Shown: in pieces, positions 12,960-16,853 of the stretch | Numbering within the stretch: the stretch's first letter is position 1 | Layout: every line of letters begins with the position of its first letter | Virus record (IMG/VR): IMGVR_UViG_2521172733_000013 | From: a virus | Taxonomy: Duplodnaviria > Heunggongvirae > Uroviricota > Caudoviricetes | Direction: 5' to 3' (one strand) | Length of the DNA: 39,572 nt | Notes under the pieces: model-generated | What the model was told of the DNA's origin: nothing | Databases searched by the model: none | What the model saw: the letters and a program-made list of their open reading frames with translations, nothing else | Translations under genes and position numbers: made by a program

Positions 12960-13468
12960 GAGAGCTAAACCTCACCAAAGAGCAGCACGAGTGGCTGAAT
13001 GGCTGGCTTGAACTGTGGGGCGCATGGGTTTATTCAGGTCGTTTGGAAAAGCGCATGAGCAGCGTAATAGCGAAGTTCATGGAGAGCGTAGAGCCGGGAA
13101 GAGTTATGACAAGGCCAATGTGCAATGATGATGATGGAATGTTGATTTCTCAGGTCGTCGATTCCGTCATGTGCATTGACAAGAAAGCCTTTGGCATCCT
13201 CCTCAGCTACTACGCTCATGGTTCATCTAAGCGAGCAATTGCATCCTACTATCACGCGACTGCAAAGCCACGCAAGATGTGTGGACGTGGTGGCGAGGGA
13301 TGGAGAAAACCTTCACTGGCAACCTGTAGAAATGAAATTGACGACATCCTGAAAGCATCATTATTTGTTTTGTACCAACCAATGCAAAATGCTTTCAAAA
13401 TGCGTAAACGTGTTGAGAAAGTTAAACATGTTGCTGTTAAAAGTCTTGACATGCAATTAGCCAATTAG
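12950..13468 (+). CDS. Q: Late-gene antiterminator Q (phage 21/82 type, not lambda Q)
   Basis: 172-aa ORF at the end of the nin region, directly upstream of the pR'-like promoter; LELWGAWV and [11 protein letters not shown] motifs as in non-lambda Q proteins. Confidence 0.75.
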
Positions 13469-13475
13469 CCATAAT
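13446..13475 (+). promoter_or_regulatory. pR'-like late promoter (qut region) overlapping the Q 3' end
   Basis: TTGACA at 13446-13451, 18-bp spacer, CATAAT at 13470-13475; followed by an imperfect hairpin and U-run (13521-13530) that could act as tR'. Confidence 0.5.
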
Positions 13476-13530
13476 TAGAAGGTAAGCTGCCGTTAGTGAC
13501 TCTTAAGTTGCAACGGTGGCTTTTTTATTT

Positions 13531-13605
13531 GGGTCAGTCGTATAAAGGTCATTATGGAAGGCTGATAACCTTCTTATCGTGGTTCGAGTTCACGCTGTCC
13601 CGCCA
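13531..13605 (+). tRNA. tRNA-like gene, anticodon GAU (Ile), with one acceptor-stem mismatch
   Basis: Hand-folded cloverleaf: anticodon stem GAAGG/CCTTC with loop CUGAUAA, T-arm CGTGG-TTCGAGT-TCACG, U8, G18G19, 3' CCA; acceptor GGGTCAG/CTGTCCC has a U-U mismatch at 4:69 and the D-stem is weak. Confidence 0.5.
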
Positions 13606-13610
13606 AACAT

Positions 13611-13686
13611 GCTGGTTTAGCTCCAATGGTAGAGCAGTCGCCTTGTAAGCGAATGGGTAGCGGTTCAAGTCCGTTAACCAGCACCA
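13611..13686 (+). tRNA. tRNA-Thr (anticodon UGU)
   Basis: Hand-folded cloverleaf: perfect 7-bp acceptor GCTGGTT/AACCAGC, D-arm GCTC-CAATGGTA-GAGC, anticodon loop CUUGUAA, T-arm AGCGG-TTCAAGT-CCGTT, discriminator A and encoded CCA. Confidence 0.75.
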
Positions 13687-13803
13687 TAACTGAGCCGGAG
13701 CCACTGGCTGTCCTGAATTCATCAGTGATAGTTATGCTGCGGCCTTCTTTTTCCCCTTCCCAATATAAGAACTACGCAATCCGTTACTGGCGGAGGCGTT
13801 GCT

Positions 13804-14019
13804 ATGAAATCAATGGACAAAATCTCAACTGGCATTGCCTACGGAACATCTGCTGGTAGTGCGGGATACTGGTTTTTGCAGTGGTTGGATCAGGTCAGTC
13901 CGTCACAGTGGGCTGCGATTGGTGTACTGGGGAGTCTGATTCTGGGCTTCCTGACTTATCTGACAAATCTGTACTTCAAAATCAGAGAAGACAAGCGTAA
14001 GGCTGCACGGGGAGAGTAA
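13804..14019 (+). CDS. S: Pinholin, S21 type (dual-start holin/antiholin)
   Basis: 71-aa [74 protein letters not shown], matching phage 21 S / DLP12 EssD as I recall; two TM segments; dual starts at M1 and M4. Confidence 0.9.
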
Positions 14020-14023
14020 TTCA

Positions 14024-14368
14024 ATGACTCAAAACTATGAACTGATTGTGAAAGGGATCCGCAATTTTGAGAATAAAGTTGCGGTAACTGTAGCATTACG
14101 GGACAAAAAACGCTTTGACGGTGAAATTTTTGACCTGGACATCTCGCTGGACCGTGTTGAAGGTGCCGCGCTGGAGTTTTATGAGGCGGCAGCCAGAAGG
14201 AGCATCAGACAGGTCTTCCTGGATGTTGCTGCCGGGTTATGTGGAGGGGATGAGCAGTCGCCGGAAAAGCGCCCCATAATTTTAGAGGCGCAGAGTGTGT
14301 GGATAACCTACAAAGGAAAACTGCCGGGAAGAATTACTGGTTCACTGAAGACTCCGCCGAAATGGTAA
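14024..14368 (+). CDS. Hypothetical protein, YdfR-like (DUF1327-like N-terminal region) with divergent C-terminus
   Basis: 114-aa ORF between holin and endolysin; N-terminal ~75 aa resemble my recollection of Qin-prophage YdfR (MTQxYELxVKGxRNFENKVxVTVAL...FDGEIFDLD...VEGAALEFYEAAARRS); 3' end overlaps a convergent ORF. Confidence 0.55.
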   Translation: MTQNYELIVKGIRNFENKVAVTVALRDKKRFDGEIFDLDISLDRVEGAALEFYEAAARRSIRQVFLDVAAGLCGGDEQSPEKRPIILEAQSVWITYKGKLPGRITGSLKTPPKW

Positions 14369-14606
14369 TTTCACCAGCATATTTTTCCTCCATTAATACC
14401 GCCAGCCACTTGAAAGAATTTTGTTGTTGCTGGGACCATTTGGGATTGAGTGATTCAAGCTGGAGCGATGCCAGTGTTGGTTGCATTTGTTCCTTGGGAA
14501 TTGAGAATGCCAGATATGAAAATGCGACAGTAAGGGCATTTACATCATCCCGAAGCTTGGAAATGCAGTCGAGCAACTCCTGTAGAGAAATGGTGCTATT
14601 GTCCAT
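14334..14606 (-). CDS. Hypothetical protein encoded antisense within the lysis cassette
   Basis: 90-aa ORF from the ATG at 14606 with a GAGAGG RBS 7 nt upstream; product MDNSTISLQELLDCISKLRDDVNALTVAFSYLAFSIPKEQ... is helical in character; convergent with the ydfR-like gene. Confidence 0.45.
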   Translation of the reverse strand: MDNSTISLQELLDCISKLRDDVNALTVAFSYLAFSIPKEQMQPTLASLQLESLNPKWSQQQQNSFKWLAVLMEEKYAGEITISAESSVNQ

Positions 14607-14711
14607 AAACAATCCTCTCTATTGTATTTAACTATTCCTTGCCTGATTCAACAGGCCGGGACAGATAAACATATCCAGGGTTCAGAAACCGATAAATCCT
14701 GATAAATATCC

Positions 14712-15245
14712 ATGAACGCAAAAATCAGATACGGCCTGTCGGCTACTGTACTAGTGCTGATTGGTGCAGGCGCGTCTGCTCCGCAAATACTTGACCAGTT
14801 TCTGGACGAAAAAGAAGGTAACCACACAACGGCATACCGTGATGGTTCCGGCATCTGGACCATCTGTCGGGGTGCCACGATGGTGGATGGAAAACCCGTT
14901 TTTCCCGGTATGAAACTGTCGAAGGAAAAATGCGACCAGGTTAACGCCATTGAACGTGATAAGGCGCTGGCATGGGTGGAACGTAATATTAAAGTACCAC
15001 TGACCGAACCACAAAAAGCGGGTATCGCGTCGTTTTGCCCCTATAACATTGGCCCCGGTAAGTGTTTCCCGTCGACGTTTTATAAGCGGCTTAATGCCGG
15101 TGATCGTAAAGGTGCCTGTGAGTCGATTCGCTGGTGGATTAAGGACGGTGGGCGTGATTGCCGCACACGTTCAAATAACTGCTACGGACAGGTTATTCGT
15201 CGTGACCAGGAAAGCGCATTAGCTTGTTGGGGGATAGATCAGTGA
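14712..15245 (+). CDS. R: SAR endolysin (phage lysozyme, R21 / RrrD-like)
   Basis: 177-aa ORF with N-terminal signal-anchor-release segment ([16 protein letters not shown]) and lysozyme core; resembles DLP12 RrrD / phage 21 R as I recall. Confidence 0.9.
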
Positions 15246-15703
15246 GAAGAGTAGCCGCGATTATCTCCGCTCTGGTTATCTGCATCATCGTCTGCCTGTC
15301 TTGGGCTGTTAATCATTACCGTGATAACGCCATTACCTACAAAGCCCAGCGCGACAAAAATGCCAGAGAACTGAAGCTGGCGAACGCGGCAATTACTGAC
15401 ATGCAGATGCGTCAGCGTGATGTTGCTGCGCTCGATGCAAAATACACGAAGGAGTTAGCTGATGCTAAAGCTGAAAATGATGCTCTGCGTGATGATGTTG
15501 CCGCTGGTCGTCGTCGGTTGCACATCAAAGCAGTCTGTCAGTCAGTGCGTGAAGCCACCACCGCCTCCGGCGTGGATAATGCAGCCTCCCCCCGACTGGC
15601 AGACACCGCTGAACGGGATTATTTCACCCTCAGAGAGAGGCTGATCACTATGCAAAAACAACTGGAAGGAACCCAGAAGTATATTAATGAGCAGTGCAGA
15701 TAG
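15242..15703 (+). CDS. Rz: i-spanin Rz
   Basis: 153-aa product from the GTG at 15242 overlapping the R stop; N-terminal TM segment ([19 protein letters not shown]) and coiled-coil periplasmic domain; matches lambda-type Rz. Confidence 0.85.
15462..15644 (+). CDS. Rz1: o-spanin Rz1 (lipoprotein embedded in Rz, +1 frame)
   Basis: 60-aa ORF with signal peptide and lipobox (LVVVGC), proline-rich ([15 protein letters not shown]); entirely nested inside Rz. Confidence 0.85.
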
Positions 15704-15727
15704 AGTTGCCCATATCGATGGGCAACT
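15704..15727. terminator. Bidirectional hairpin terminator between Rz and bor
   Basis: AGTTGCCCATATCGATGGGCAACT, an 8-bp perfect stem between convergent genes. Confidence 0.55.
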
Positions 15728-15734
15728 CATGCAA

Positions 15735-16028
15735 TTATTGTGAGCAATACACACGCGCTTCCAGCGGAGTATAAATGCCTAAAGTAATAAAACCGAGCAA
15801 TCCATTTACGAATGTTTGCTGGGTTTCTGTTTTAACAACATTTTCTGCGCCGCCACAAATTTTGGCTGCATCGACAGTTTTCTTCTGCCCAATTCCAGAG
15901 ACGAAGAAATGGTGAGTGATGGTTTCCTTTGGTGTTACTGCTGCTGGTTTGTTTTGAACAGTAAACGTCTGTTGGGCACATCCTGTAATAAGCAGGGCCA
16001 GCGCAGTAGCGAGTAGCATTTTTTTCAT
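15735..16028 (-). CDS. bor: Bor lipoprotein (serum-resistance moron)
   Basis: 97-aa ORF MKKMLLATALALLITGCAQQTFTVQNKPAAV... with lipoprotein signal and lipobox ITGC; matches lambda Bor. Confidence 0.9.
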   Translation of the reverse strand: MKKMLLATALALLITGCAQQTFTVQNKPAAVTPKETITHHFFVSGIGQKKTVDAAKICGGAENVVKTETQQTFVNGLLGFITLGIYTPLEARVYCSQ

Positions 16029-16319
16029 GGTGTTATTCCCGATGCTTTTTAAAGTTCGCAGAATCGTATGTGTAGAAAATTAAACAAACCCTAAACAATG
16101 AGTTGAAATCTCATATTGTTAATATTTATTAATGTATGTCAGATGCGAAGGATCGTCACTGTATTCCCGGATTAACTATGTCCGCAGCCCTGACAGGGAA
16201 ACTCCTCTGCGGGAGTGTCCGGGAATAATTAATAACGATGCACACAGGGTTTAGCGCGTACACGTATTGCATTATGCCAACGCCCCGGTGCTGACACGGA
16301 AGAAACCGGACGTTATGAT

Positions 16320-16853
16320 TTAGCGTGGAAAGATTTGTGTAGTGTTCTGAATGCTCTCAGTAAATAGTAATGAATTATCAAAGGCATAGTAATATCTTTT
16401 ATGTTCGTGGATATTTGTAACCCATCGGAAAACTCCTGCTTTAGCAAGATTTTCCCTGTATTGCTGAAATGTGATTTCTCTTGATTTCAACCTATCATAG
16501 GACGTTTCTATAAGATGCGTATTTCTTGAGAATTTAACATTTACAACCTTTTTAAGTCCTTTTATTAACACAGTGTTATCGTTTTCTAACACAATGTGAA
16601 TATTATCTGTGGCTAGATAGTAAATATAATGTGAGACATTGTGACGTTTTAGTTCAGAATAAAACAATTCACAGTTTAAATCTTTTCGCACTTGATCGAA
16701 TATTTCTTTAAAAATGGCAACCTGAGCCATTGGTAAAACCTTCCATGTGATACGAGGGCGCGTAGTTTGCATTATCGTTTTTATCGTTTCAATCTGGTCT
16801 GACCTCTTTGTGTTTTGTTGATGATTTATGTCAAATATTAGGAATGTTTTCAA
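16320..16853 (-). CDS. Hypothetical protein (lambda right-end ORF; YbcV-like)
   Basis: 177-aa ORF in a visibly AT-rich segment between bor and cos; colinear with a lambda right-end hypothetical ORF as I recall. Confidence 0.6.

What the first reader, a model, noticed from the sequence alone, without database searches (positions are those of the whole stretch)
14020..14711. Insertion between holin and endolysin containing a convergent, antisense small gene
In the 21/DLP12-type lysis cassette as I know it, the S holin is followed directly by the SAR endolysin (DLP12) or by a single short ydfR gene (Qin). Here about 690 bp separate S and R: a ydfR-like ORF whose C-terminal ~40 residues diverge, plus a 90-aa ORF on the opposite strand (14334..14606) with a good GAGAGG RBS that overlaps the ydfR-like 3' end. 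A gene transcribed against the Q-dependent late transcript is unusual and would collide with lysis-gene expression. It could be a moron with its own promoter, or a small regulatory or anti-lysis-timing factor.
Basis: partly seen in the sequence, partly recalled or inferred. Interest (0 to 1): 0.6.

Follow-up and report, generated by a model that had tools for sequence, protein, structure and literature searches.

The report
Backward-facing accessory gene in lysis cassette
The gap between the holin and endolysin genes of this E. coli prophage holds a common variant of the known ydfR gene plus a 300-bp add-on cassette with a genuine small protein gene of unknown function on the opposite strand; about a fifth of complete E. 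coli genomes carry it, so it is not an oddity of this phage.

Summary
S (13804-14019) and R (14712-15245) are 692 bp apart. Between them lie a 114-aa YdfR/DUF1327 gene and a convergent 90-aa minus-strand ORF (14334-14606) that overlaps it by 35 nt.

The YdfR copy is an ordinary full-length allele (PHROG 406). The minus ORF is a real gene:
- It is intact in 201 of 206 related loci, with no indels.
- dN/dS is about 0.3, against about 1.1-1.3 in four of the five other frames.
- The mirror plus-strand frame carries stop codons in 108 of 206 loci.
- Homologues at 25-45% identity occur across Enterobacterales.

It is PHROG 2411, annotated "hypothetical protein" by PGAP, and present in about 1,050 of 5,426 complete E. 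coli genomes. Empty-site relatives delimit a roughly 300-bp cassette (about 14356-14655).

The same slot carries at least three other unrelated small ORFs in other phages, all on the minus strand. Homologues of the 90-aa protein also face against late genes in Citrobacter, Klebsiella and Atlantibacter-like prophages. They occur on IncF plasmids, and as a chromosomal gene between dinI and bssS in Yersiniaceae.

Best reading: a moron-type accessory gene, like bor nearby, and not a lysis-timing factor. Its promoter, expression and function are unverified. Interest is modest.

The parts
13804..14019 (+). S, phage-21-type class II holin
   Evidence: PF04971 at E 1.4e-35. PGAP calls it 'class II holin family protein' in the identical genome.
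14024..14368 (+). YdfR-family (DUF1327) gene, 114-aa allele
   Evidence: PF07041 at 143.8 bits against a 25-bit cut-off, covering profile positions 1-92 of 93. Full-length match to phrog_406, 1-114 of 114. Residues 1-73 are 81% identical to K-12 YdfR. The same C-terminus up to ...KTPP occurs in 689R5, 2H10 and, with one substitution (KMPP), Stx2-86.
14356..14655 (.). About 300-bp insertion cassette (approximate boundaries) carrying the minus-strand gene
   Evidence: Alignment with the empty-site relatives L282 and L227 and with 689R5. GC is 0.42-0.45 here against 0.50-0.57 in the flanks.
14334..14606 (-). orfX: 90-aa gene for a protein of unknown function (PHROG 2411; WP_000370547.1)
   Evidence: Intact in 201 of 206 loci with no indels. 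dN/dS is 0.31 against 1.1-1.3 in four of the five other frames. The mirror plus frame has stops in 108 of 206 loci. Against the IncF plasmid copy, dS is 1.03 and dN 0.23. Matches phrog_2411 at E 8e-59. AlphaFold2 predicts three helices and a disordered tail at residues 79-90.
14614..14619 (-). Shine-Dalgarno GAGAGG, 7 nt upstream of the orfX ATG
   Evidence: Read from the sequence. GAGGATT is invariant in the upstream alignment.
14641..14656 (-). Conserved inverted repeat GCCTG-N6-CAGGC upstream of orfX; role unknown
   Evidence: Present in all lineages, with lineage-specific stem extensions. Part of the minimum-free-energy fold, with a z-score of only -1.9.
14621..14651 (-). Candidate promoter only: TTGAAT, 19-nt spacer, TACAAT
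   Evidence: Found by eye in the sequence. Over-long spacer, poorly conserved across lineages, and not reported by the consensus scan. Unverified.
14668..14696 (-). Candidate promoter only: TTTATC, 17-nt spacer, TATGTT, inside the conserved R-upstream sequence
   Evidence: Found by eye. The -10-like TATGTT is also present in the one cargo-less relative L282. A weak match (7 of 12). Unverified.
14657..14711 (+). Conserved R-upstream segment shared by cassettes with and without cargo
   Evidence: Nearly invariant in the upstream alignment. Shared with empty sites and with the other cargo types.
14712..15245 (+). R, endolysin (phage lysozyme)
   Evidence: PF00959 at E 2e-24. PGAP calls it 'lysozyme'.

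Best explanation
The S-R interval consists of two ordinary things.

1. A common 114-aa allele of the late-operon gene ydfR (DUF1327).
2. A ~300-bp accessory ('moron'-type) cassette inserted just after the ydfR codons for ...KTPP.

The cassette carries one real protein-coding gene, orfX, with its own Shine-Dalgarno sequence, on the strand opposite the Q-dependent late operon. The product is a small acidic soluble protein (net charge about -5) predicted to form three helices with a disordered C-terminal tail.

Inferred, not shown: orfX is transcribed on its own while late transcription is off. Without Q, transcripts from the late promoter are expected to terminate early, so nothing would collide. 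After induction, anti-terminated late transcription simply reads through and over-rides it, as for lambda bor. The protein probably binds a host or incoming-phage protein and is not part of the lysis machinery. The family looks like a small host gene (chromosomal, between dinI and bssS in Yersiniaceae) that phages and IncF plasmids have picked up repeatedly.
For: Real gene:
- 201 of 206 copies are intact and none has an indel.
- dN/dS is 0.31 overall and 0.27 outside the overlap, against 1.1-1.3 in four of the five other frames.
- Variable sites at codon positions 1/2/3 number 18/15/38. The only other low-dN/dS frame, the mirror plus-strand ORF, has stops in 108 of 206 loci.
- Window copy versus IncF plasmid copy: dS 1.03, dN 0.23.
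- Homologues at 25-45% identity keep their length and the AFSYLAF and LES motifs.

Cassette:
- Empty-site relatives define the boundaries precisely.
- GC content is lower than in the flanks.

Not tied to lysis:
- Homologues lie beside an autotransporter on IncF plasmids.
- In an Atlantibacter-like phage, the homologue lies between tail genes.
- In a Citrobacter prophage it lies upstream of the holin, and in a Klebsiella prophage it sits next to the terminase genes.
- In Serratia, Chania and Chimaeribacter it sits in a conserved rne-pyrC-dinI-X-bssS-solA arrangement. In Serratia marcescens it follows the dinI terminator.
- In all four phage contexts it faces against the late genes.

Compatible with working lysis:
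- Environmentally isolated phage Chlobot carries the same S-ydfR-orfX-R layout.

Precedent:
- bor is on the minus strand at 15735-16028 of this window. lambda bor and lom are expressed from the prophage (PMC7067206).
Against: - No canonical sigma-70 promoter or intrinsic terminator was found for orfX here, or for its homologues in L211, L210 or L297. Autonomous transcription is therefore inferred only.
- No transcript, ribosome-profiling or proteomic evidence could be consulted.
- Selection is only moderate (omega about 0.3).
- About 2-3% of copies carry nonsense mutations, and several 94-aa frameshifted alleles exist.
- There is no Pfam, NCBIfam or PADLOC match and no structural match, so the molecular activity is a guess.
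Confidence: 0.7

Rival explanations
1. The transcript matters as much as the protein, or more. A minus-strand RNA from the cassette is complementary to the late mRNA at the ydfR 3' end, and to the R leader if it starts further upstream. It would act as an antisense brake on leaky lysis-gene expression in lysogens, or as an exclusion factor against closely related superinfecting phages.
For: At least four unrelated small ORFs (phrog_2411, 2572, 1853, 21218) occupy this same slot, and every one is on the minus strand. That hints that orientation itself may be selected. All cargo types keep the same R-proximal sequence followed by a hairpin. There is a precedent: the antisense RNA STnc6030 lies inside the late genes of Salmonella prophage BTP1 and mediates superinfection exclusion (PMC7067206).
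Against: The protein sequence is under purifying selection and is conserved at 25-45% identity in contexts with nothing to be antisense to, namely Yersiniaceae chromosomes and IncF plasmids. No promoter was identified. In Stx2-86 the hairpin followed by T5 on the minus strand lies between R and the cargo gene, which argues against a long transcript reaching into R. A minus orientation is also simply what keeps a moron out of the late operon.
Confidence: 0.12
2. orfX encodes a lysis-timing or anti-lysis factor that acts on the holin, endolysin or YdfR.
For: It sits inside the lysis cassette. In the Citrobacter prophage the homologue is again next to the holin. Cargo type tends to go with a particular YdfR C-terminal variant.
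Against: It has no transmembrane or signal segment, whereas antiholins and holin regulators are typically membrane proteins (established knowledge, not tested here). It is on the wrong strand to be co-expressed with the late genes. Homologues occur without any lysis genes or YdfR nearby. The YdfR C-terminus ending ...KTPP occurs without orfX in L282 and 689R5. Phages with and without the cassette both exist.
Confidence: 0.06
3. The minus-strand ORF is a chance open frame, the shadow of some other constraint, and no protein is made.
For: The mirror plus-strand frame (14299-14631) is also open in this window and gives an equally low dN/dS of 0.25. This shows how such shadows arise. No functional annotation exists for the ORF.
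Against: The plus frame is broken in 108 of 206 loci and in the plasmid copy, while the minus frame is intact in 201 of 206. Distant homologues keep the length, the helix pattern and invariant residues. The RBS is conserved.
Confidence: 0.03

Closest known systems
lambda bor (and lom): morons embedded in or beside the late region and expressed from the prophage
   Same: A small accessory gene next to the lysis genes, on the strand opposite the late operon, present in some lambdoid phages and absent from close relatives. A bor homologue lies 1.1 kb downstream in this very window.
   Different: Bor is a lipoprotein with a known serum-resistance phenotype and a documented promoter. orfX is a soluble acidic helical protein with no known phenotype, and no promoter or expression data were found here.
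PHROG 2411 (phage protein family of unknown function) / RefSeq WP_000370547.1 'hypothetical protein'
   Same: orfX matches the family profile end to end, 1-90 of 90, at E 8e-59. It is the annotated CDS in the identical genome.
   Different: Nothing differs in sequence; this is the family. This work adds that the family also has chromosomal (Yersiniaceae) and plasmid members and is consistently antisense to late genes.
YdfR of cryptic prophage Qin (E. coli K-12), Pfam DUF1327
   Same: The plus-strand ORF shares the N-terminal 73 residues at 81% identity. That is the part reported to bind the RNase E catalytic domain (PMC13232886). It sits in the same position, directly after S.
   Different: The C-terminal ~41 residues belong to a different, common allele (phrog_406). 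The last two codons and the stop come from the inserted cassette.
STnc6030 antisense RNA of Salmonella prophage BTP1
   Same: A prophage-borne transcription unit lying antisense inside the late genes (PMC7067206).
   Different: STnc6030 is a non-coding RNA longer than 700 nt with demonstrated exclusion activity. orfX is a conserved protein-coding gene, and no RNA-level function has been shown.

Membership tests
Moron (independently acquired accessory transcription unit in a phage genome) | Present in some genomes and precisely absent from otherwise collinear relatives | tested here: met
   Empty sites L282, L227 and 689R5 against the window define a ~300-bp indel. In the census, 31 loci carry orfX and 30 are empty, out of 77.
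Moron (independently acquired accessory transcription unit in a phage genome) | Own promoter and terminator flanking the gene | tested here: inconclusive
   The consensus scan finds no minus-strand promoter or terminator in 14200-14760. Only weak candidates were found by eye.
Moron (independently acquired accessory transcription unit in a phage genome) | Base composition differs from neighbouring phage genes | tested here: met
   GC is 0.42-0.45 across the cassette against 0.50-0.57 in ydfR and R. The difference is modest.
Moron (independently acquired accessory transcription unit in a phage genome) | Expressed from the repressed prophage | not testable with these tools
   No transcriptome data could be consulted. 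The LF82 prophage transcriptome paper lists no gene in this slot, and the Perceval slot ORF is unannotated.
YdfR / DUF1327 (PF07041), for the plus-strand ORF | Score above the Pfam gathering threshold over the full domain | tested here: met
   143.8 bits against a 25-bit cut-off, profile positions 1-92 of 93. phrog_406 matched 1-114 of 114.
PHROG 2411, for orfX | Full-length profile match | tested here: met
   E 8.2e-59, profile positions 1-90 of 90.
Antiholin / holin-associated lysis regulator | Membrane protein (transmembrane domain) co-expressed with the holin from the late transcript | tested here: not met
   The gene is on the opposite strand. The predicted structure is three soluble helices, and the longest hydrophobic run is about 12 residues (and the sequence itself).
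Known anti-phage defence proteins (PADLOC-DB) | Match to any defence-system profile | tested here: not met
   No families matched at E <= 1.
SOS regulon member (suggested by the dinI neighbourhood in Yersiniaceae) | LexA box (CTGT-N8-ACAG) in the upstream region | tested here: not met
   No match with up to 1 mismatch in 14607-14760. In Serratia the LexA box precedes dinI, and a terminator separates dinI from the homologue.

The most novel reading that the evidence does not exclude
The junction between ydfR and R may be a dedicated antisense cargo slot of lambdoid lysis cassettes. At least four unrelated small genes are found there, always facing against the late operon. They may exploit a resident element in the conserved R-upstream sequence. 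Their transcripts, their proteins or both could guard the lysogen, either by damping leaky endolysin expression or by excluding related phages. Separately, the orfX family, conserved next to dinI and two genes from rne in Yersiniaceae, could be an uncharacterised small stress-response or RNA-decay modulator that phages have captured. That would connect with the reported binding of the adjacent YdfR to RNase E.
Probability: 0.15. Interest if true: 0.65.

Novelty: new member of a known kind. Interest (0 to 1): 0.35.

Why it matters
This small protein sits in roughly one in five complete E. coli genomes, including ExPEC strains such as S88 and IHE3034. It also has plasmid copies and conserved chromosomal relatives in Serratia. 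It has no Pfam family, no structural relative and no literature.

Showing that it is a real, selected gene that repeatedly lands antisense to phage late genes makes it a reasonable candidate for prophage accessory-gene screens (phage exclusion, stress, virulence). It also flags the ydfR-R junction as a cargo hot spot where two GenBank phage records (2H10, Perceval) leave the resident ORF unannotated.

It does not change the picture of how phage-21-type lysis works.

Tried and rejected
Function by sequence or fold:
- Pfam, NCBIfam and PADLOC scans of orfX and distant homologues gave nothing.
- A PDB sequence-profile search gave nothing.

The plus-strand mirror ORF (14299-14631; an ATG at 14362 overlaps the ydfR stop):
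- I considered it seriously because its dN/dS is as low as orfX's.
- I rejected it because it has stops in 108 of 206 loci and in the plasmid copy.

Homology among the slot's cargo proteins:
- BLASTP and hhalign found none.

TATGTT as a cargo-specific -10 element:
- Rejected, because the empty site L282 also has it.

SOS control:
- No LexA box lies upstream of orfX.

Searches that returned nothing:
- Rfam found only the two tRNAs in 13000-16500.
- A genome-contig scan with the Sodalis homologue and a viral-contig scan with the Klebsiella homologue found nothing.
- Literature searches for DUF1327, ybl58 and the RefSeq/PHROG identifiers found nothing relevant. One 2026 paper on YdfR and RNase E was useful for context.

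Full report
**What is there**

The window is a lambdoid prophage. The 1,451 bases spanning S to R are 100% identical to E. coli O111:H21 strain 15A, where PGAP annotates, in order:
- NinB through NinG, a phosphatase and the Q antiterminator
- a tRNA
- a class II holin, a YdfR family protein and a hypothetical protein on the minus strand
- lysozyme, RzpD and Bor on the minus strand

My own ORF listing and Pfam scan agree:
- S, 13804-14019, PF04971
- YdfR-like gene, 14024-14368, PF07041
- a minus-strand ORF, 14334-14606 (90 aa from the ATG)
- R, 14712-15245, PF00959

A strong late-promoter-like site (TTGACA, 18-nt spacer, CATAAT) lies at 13446-13475 at the end of Q. Two tRNAs follow it. The gap between S and R is 692 bp, and the two convergent ORFs overlap by 35 nt. 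The GAGAGG Shine-Dalgarno sequence lies 7 nt from the ATG.

**The YdfR half is ordinary**

It nevertheless matches the DUF1327 profile end to end and is a full-length member of phrog_406.

The same C-terminus up to ...KTPP is found in several other phages:
- 689R5 (116 aa, no minus ORF)
- 2H10 (183 aa)
- Stx2-86 (268 aa), with one substitution (KMPP)

It is one of several common alleles. For context, a 2026 paper reports that Qin YdfR binds the catalytic N-terminal half of RNase E through residues 1-72 and may bind RNA (PMC13232886). That conserved part is what the window's copy retains.

**Is the minus-strand ORF a gene?**

I collected 206 copies from IMG/VR loci plus annotated records. They comprise 42 distinct nucleotide sequences. 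None has an indel, and 201 of the 206 are intact.

Pooled Nei-Gojobori estimates give the following:

| Frame or gene | dN/dS |
|---|---|
| orfX, annotated frame | 0.31 |
| orfX, outside the ydfR overlap | 0.27 |
| four of the five other frames | 1.1-1.3 |
| plus-strand mirror frame | 0.25 |
| S | 0.08 |
| R | 0.09 |
| ydfR | 0.45 |

The fifth frame is the plus-strand frame whose third codon positions coincide with those of orfX. It is also open in this window (14299-14631) and scores 0.25. This is the usual mirror-frame shadow, and two results resolve it. First, that plus frame carries stop codons in 108 of 206 loci, at several independent positions. Second, it carries a stop in a diverged plasmid copy.

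Variable sites outside the overlap fall 18/15/38 at codon positions 1/2/3 of the minus frame. Against the IncF plasmid homologue, dS is 1.03 and dN is 0.23.

Profile searches then found homologues at 25-45% identity that keep the same length, the same three-helix pattern and the invariant residues A28, Y31, L32 and E51. I conclude that orfX is a real protein-coding gene under moderate purifying selection. About 2-3% of copies are pseudogenised, and frameshifted 94-aa alleles exist.

**How common, and how is it bounded?**

The 343 bases specific to orfX and its upstream region are found at 80% coverage or better in 1,053 of 5,426 complete E. coli genomes. The whole S-to-R arrangement is found in 1,030. 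Carriers include S88 and IHE3034. Phage Chlobot, isolated from the environment, has the same layout, so the insert is compatible with a working lysis cassette.

Alignment with cargo-less relatives (L282, L227, 689R5) places the insertion between the ...KTPP codons (about 14355) and CCGGGACAGATAAAC (about 14656). That makes a cassette of roughly 300 bp. Its GC content is 0.42-0.45, against 0.50-0.57 in the neighbouring genes.

**The slot is a hot spot**

I took 77 IMG/VR loci that share the YdfR N-domain and R and classified the interval between them:

| Content of the slot | Loci |
|---|---|
| empty | 30 |
| orfX | 31 |
| an 86-88-aa ORF (phrog_2572) | 12 |
| a 104-aa ORF (phrog_1853, Stx2-86 gp06) | 5 |

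The phrog_2572 ORF is annotated in PhiR5_1 but not in 2H10. A 110-aa reading of the same ORF, from an upstream start, appears in one of the 12 loci.

Prophage Perceval of strain LF82 has a fourth, unannotated 79-aa ORF here (phrog_21218). None of these cargo proteins resembles another. Every one is on the minus strand. For phrog_2572, all 14 copies are intact and omega is about 0.4.

On the minus strand, all four cargo types keep the same R-proximal sequence, CATGGATATTTATCAGGATTTATCGG...GGATATGTT, followed by a hairpin. In Stx2-86 that hairpin is followed by T5.

**Where else the orfX family lives**

- E. coli IncF plasmids, downstream of an autotransporter gene: 75 PLSDB records, with one cluster seen on at least 1,000 contigs.
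- An Atlantibacter-like phage, between tail genes and opposite to them.
- A Citrobacter freundii prophage, just upstream of and divergent from the holin-lysozyme pair.
- A Klebsiella prophage, opposite to the terminase and portal genes.
- Serratia, Chania and Chimaeribacter, in a conserved chromosomal arrangement rne-pyrC-dinI-X-bssS-solA. In Serratia marcescens, X lies after the dinI terminator.
- An isolated site in Sodalis ligni.

In all four phage contexts the gene faces against the late genes. None of these homologues has a Pfam or NCBIfam match.

**What the protein looks like**

AlphaFold2 with two different alignments gives the same model. It has helices at about 8-35, 38-52 and 59-77 and a disordered tail from residue 79, with mean pLDDT 77-78. 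The disordered tail is the part encoded in the overlap with ydfR.

By my count from the sequence, the protein is acidic (11 D/E against 6 K/R) and has no membrane-spanning stretch. Structure searches returned nothing specific, and neither did a PDB sequence-profile search.

**Transcription is the weak point**

The consensus scan finds no minus-strand promoter or terminator around orfX, and none for homologues in three other contexts.

By eye there are two weak candidates:
- TTGAAT, 19-nt spacer, TACAAT (14651-14621). This lies inside the cassette but is poorly conserved across lineages.
- TTTATC, 17-nt spacer, TATGTT (14696-14668). This lies in the conserved R-upstream segment, and its -10-like TATGTT is also present in the cargo-less site L282.

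A conserved inverted repeat, GCCTG-N6-CAGGC (14641-14656), shows lineage-specific stem extensions, but its folding z-score is only -1.9. There is no LexA box. Autonomous expression is therefore an inference from gene orientation, from the indel structure and from analogy with bor. It is not a result.

**Interpretation**

The most economical reading is a moron-type accessory gene. It is a real small-protein gene that has been dropped repeatedly into phage late regions in the orientation that keeps it out of the late operon. It was probably derived from, or shared with, a small chromosomal gene of Enterobacterales.

Established lambda biology says that without Q the late-promoter transcript terminates early. 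After induction, anti-terminated late transcription should simply dominate.

A lysis-timing role is unlikely, given the soluble protein, the wrong strand, and the many homologues with no lysis genes nearby. The uniform orientation of four unrelated cargo genes keeps an antisense-RNA contribution alive as a minority possibility, with STnc6030 as the precedent (PMC7067206).

**Verdict**

Both genes already exist as annotated hypothetical proteins and as PHROG families, so this is a new, uncharacterised member of a known kind of element. Interest is modest, at 0.35. It rests on three things: how widespread the gene is, the cargo hot spot, and the chromosomal homologues next to dinI.

Noticed in passing
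window 14299-14631 (+): A 110-aa plus-strand ORF mirrors orfX. An in-frame ATG at 14362 overlaps the ydfR stop as AUGGUAA. Its dN/dS is 0.25 because its third codon positions coincide with those of orfX, but it has stop codons in 108 of 206 related loci. It is a good example of a mirror-frame artefact.
   Followed up: yes
L007:1221-1487 (-) in phage 2H10; L216:1333-1572 (-) in phage Perceval; L006:1479-1793 (-) in Stx2-86; L214:1045-1305 (-) in PhiR5_1: The same ydfR-R slot holds three other unrelated small minus-strand ORFs (phrog_2572, phrog_21218, phrog_1853). The 2H10 and Perceval copies are not annotated in their GenBank records. Each cargo type goes with a different YdfR length (183/211, 104 and 268 aa).
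   Followed up: partly
window 14657-14711 (+), and the equivalent stretch in L004, L007, L006, L214 and L216: The ~55 nt upstream of R are nearly invariant across lineages, more so than the coding sequence. They contain a direct repeat, GATAAAT-CCT-GATAAAT, and show no obvious Shine-Dalgarno sequence for R. How R translation starts here is unclear.
   Followed up: no
L297:5001-5282, L304:4001-4279, L305:4001-4270: In Serratia, Chania and Chimaeribacter, the orfX homologue is a conserved chromosomal gene between dinI and bssS, two genes downstream of rne. In Serratia marcescens a terminator separates it from dinI. E. coli K-12 has no such gene, as far as I recall (not checked here).
   Followed up: partly
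window 13531-13605 and 13611-13686 (+): Two tRNA genes, Ile-GAT and Thr-TGT, lie between Q/pR' and S. PGAP annotates only the tRNA-Thr in the identical genome region.
   Followed up: partly
window 15662-15676 (-): A terminator-like hairpin followed by a T-run lies on the minus strand just downstream of bor, inside the Rz coding region. It would stop bor transcripts from running antisense into R and orfX.
   Followed up: no
L006:1840-1880 (Stx2-86, minus strand): The hairpin CGCCAG...CTGGCG followed by TTTTT lies on the minus strand between R and the cargo gene gp06. It looks like an intrinsic terminator placed upstream of the cargo ORF.
   Followed up: no
whole window: The LexA-box-like pattern CTGT-N8-ACAG, with up to 1 mismatch, occurs 25 times against 12.8 +/- 3.6 expected from shuffles. 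There are two exact matches, at 30373 and 39432. None is near orfX.
   Followed up: no
proteins P0045, P0048, P0057: Frameshifted 94-aa alleles of orfX, with the frame lost after ...NPKWS or nearby, recur in several clusters. Some come from complete genomes. Some lineages therefore carry a decayed copy.
   Followed up: no
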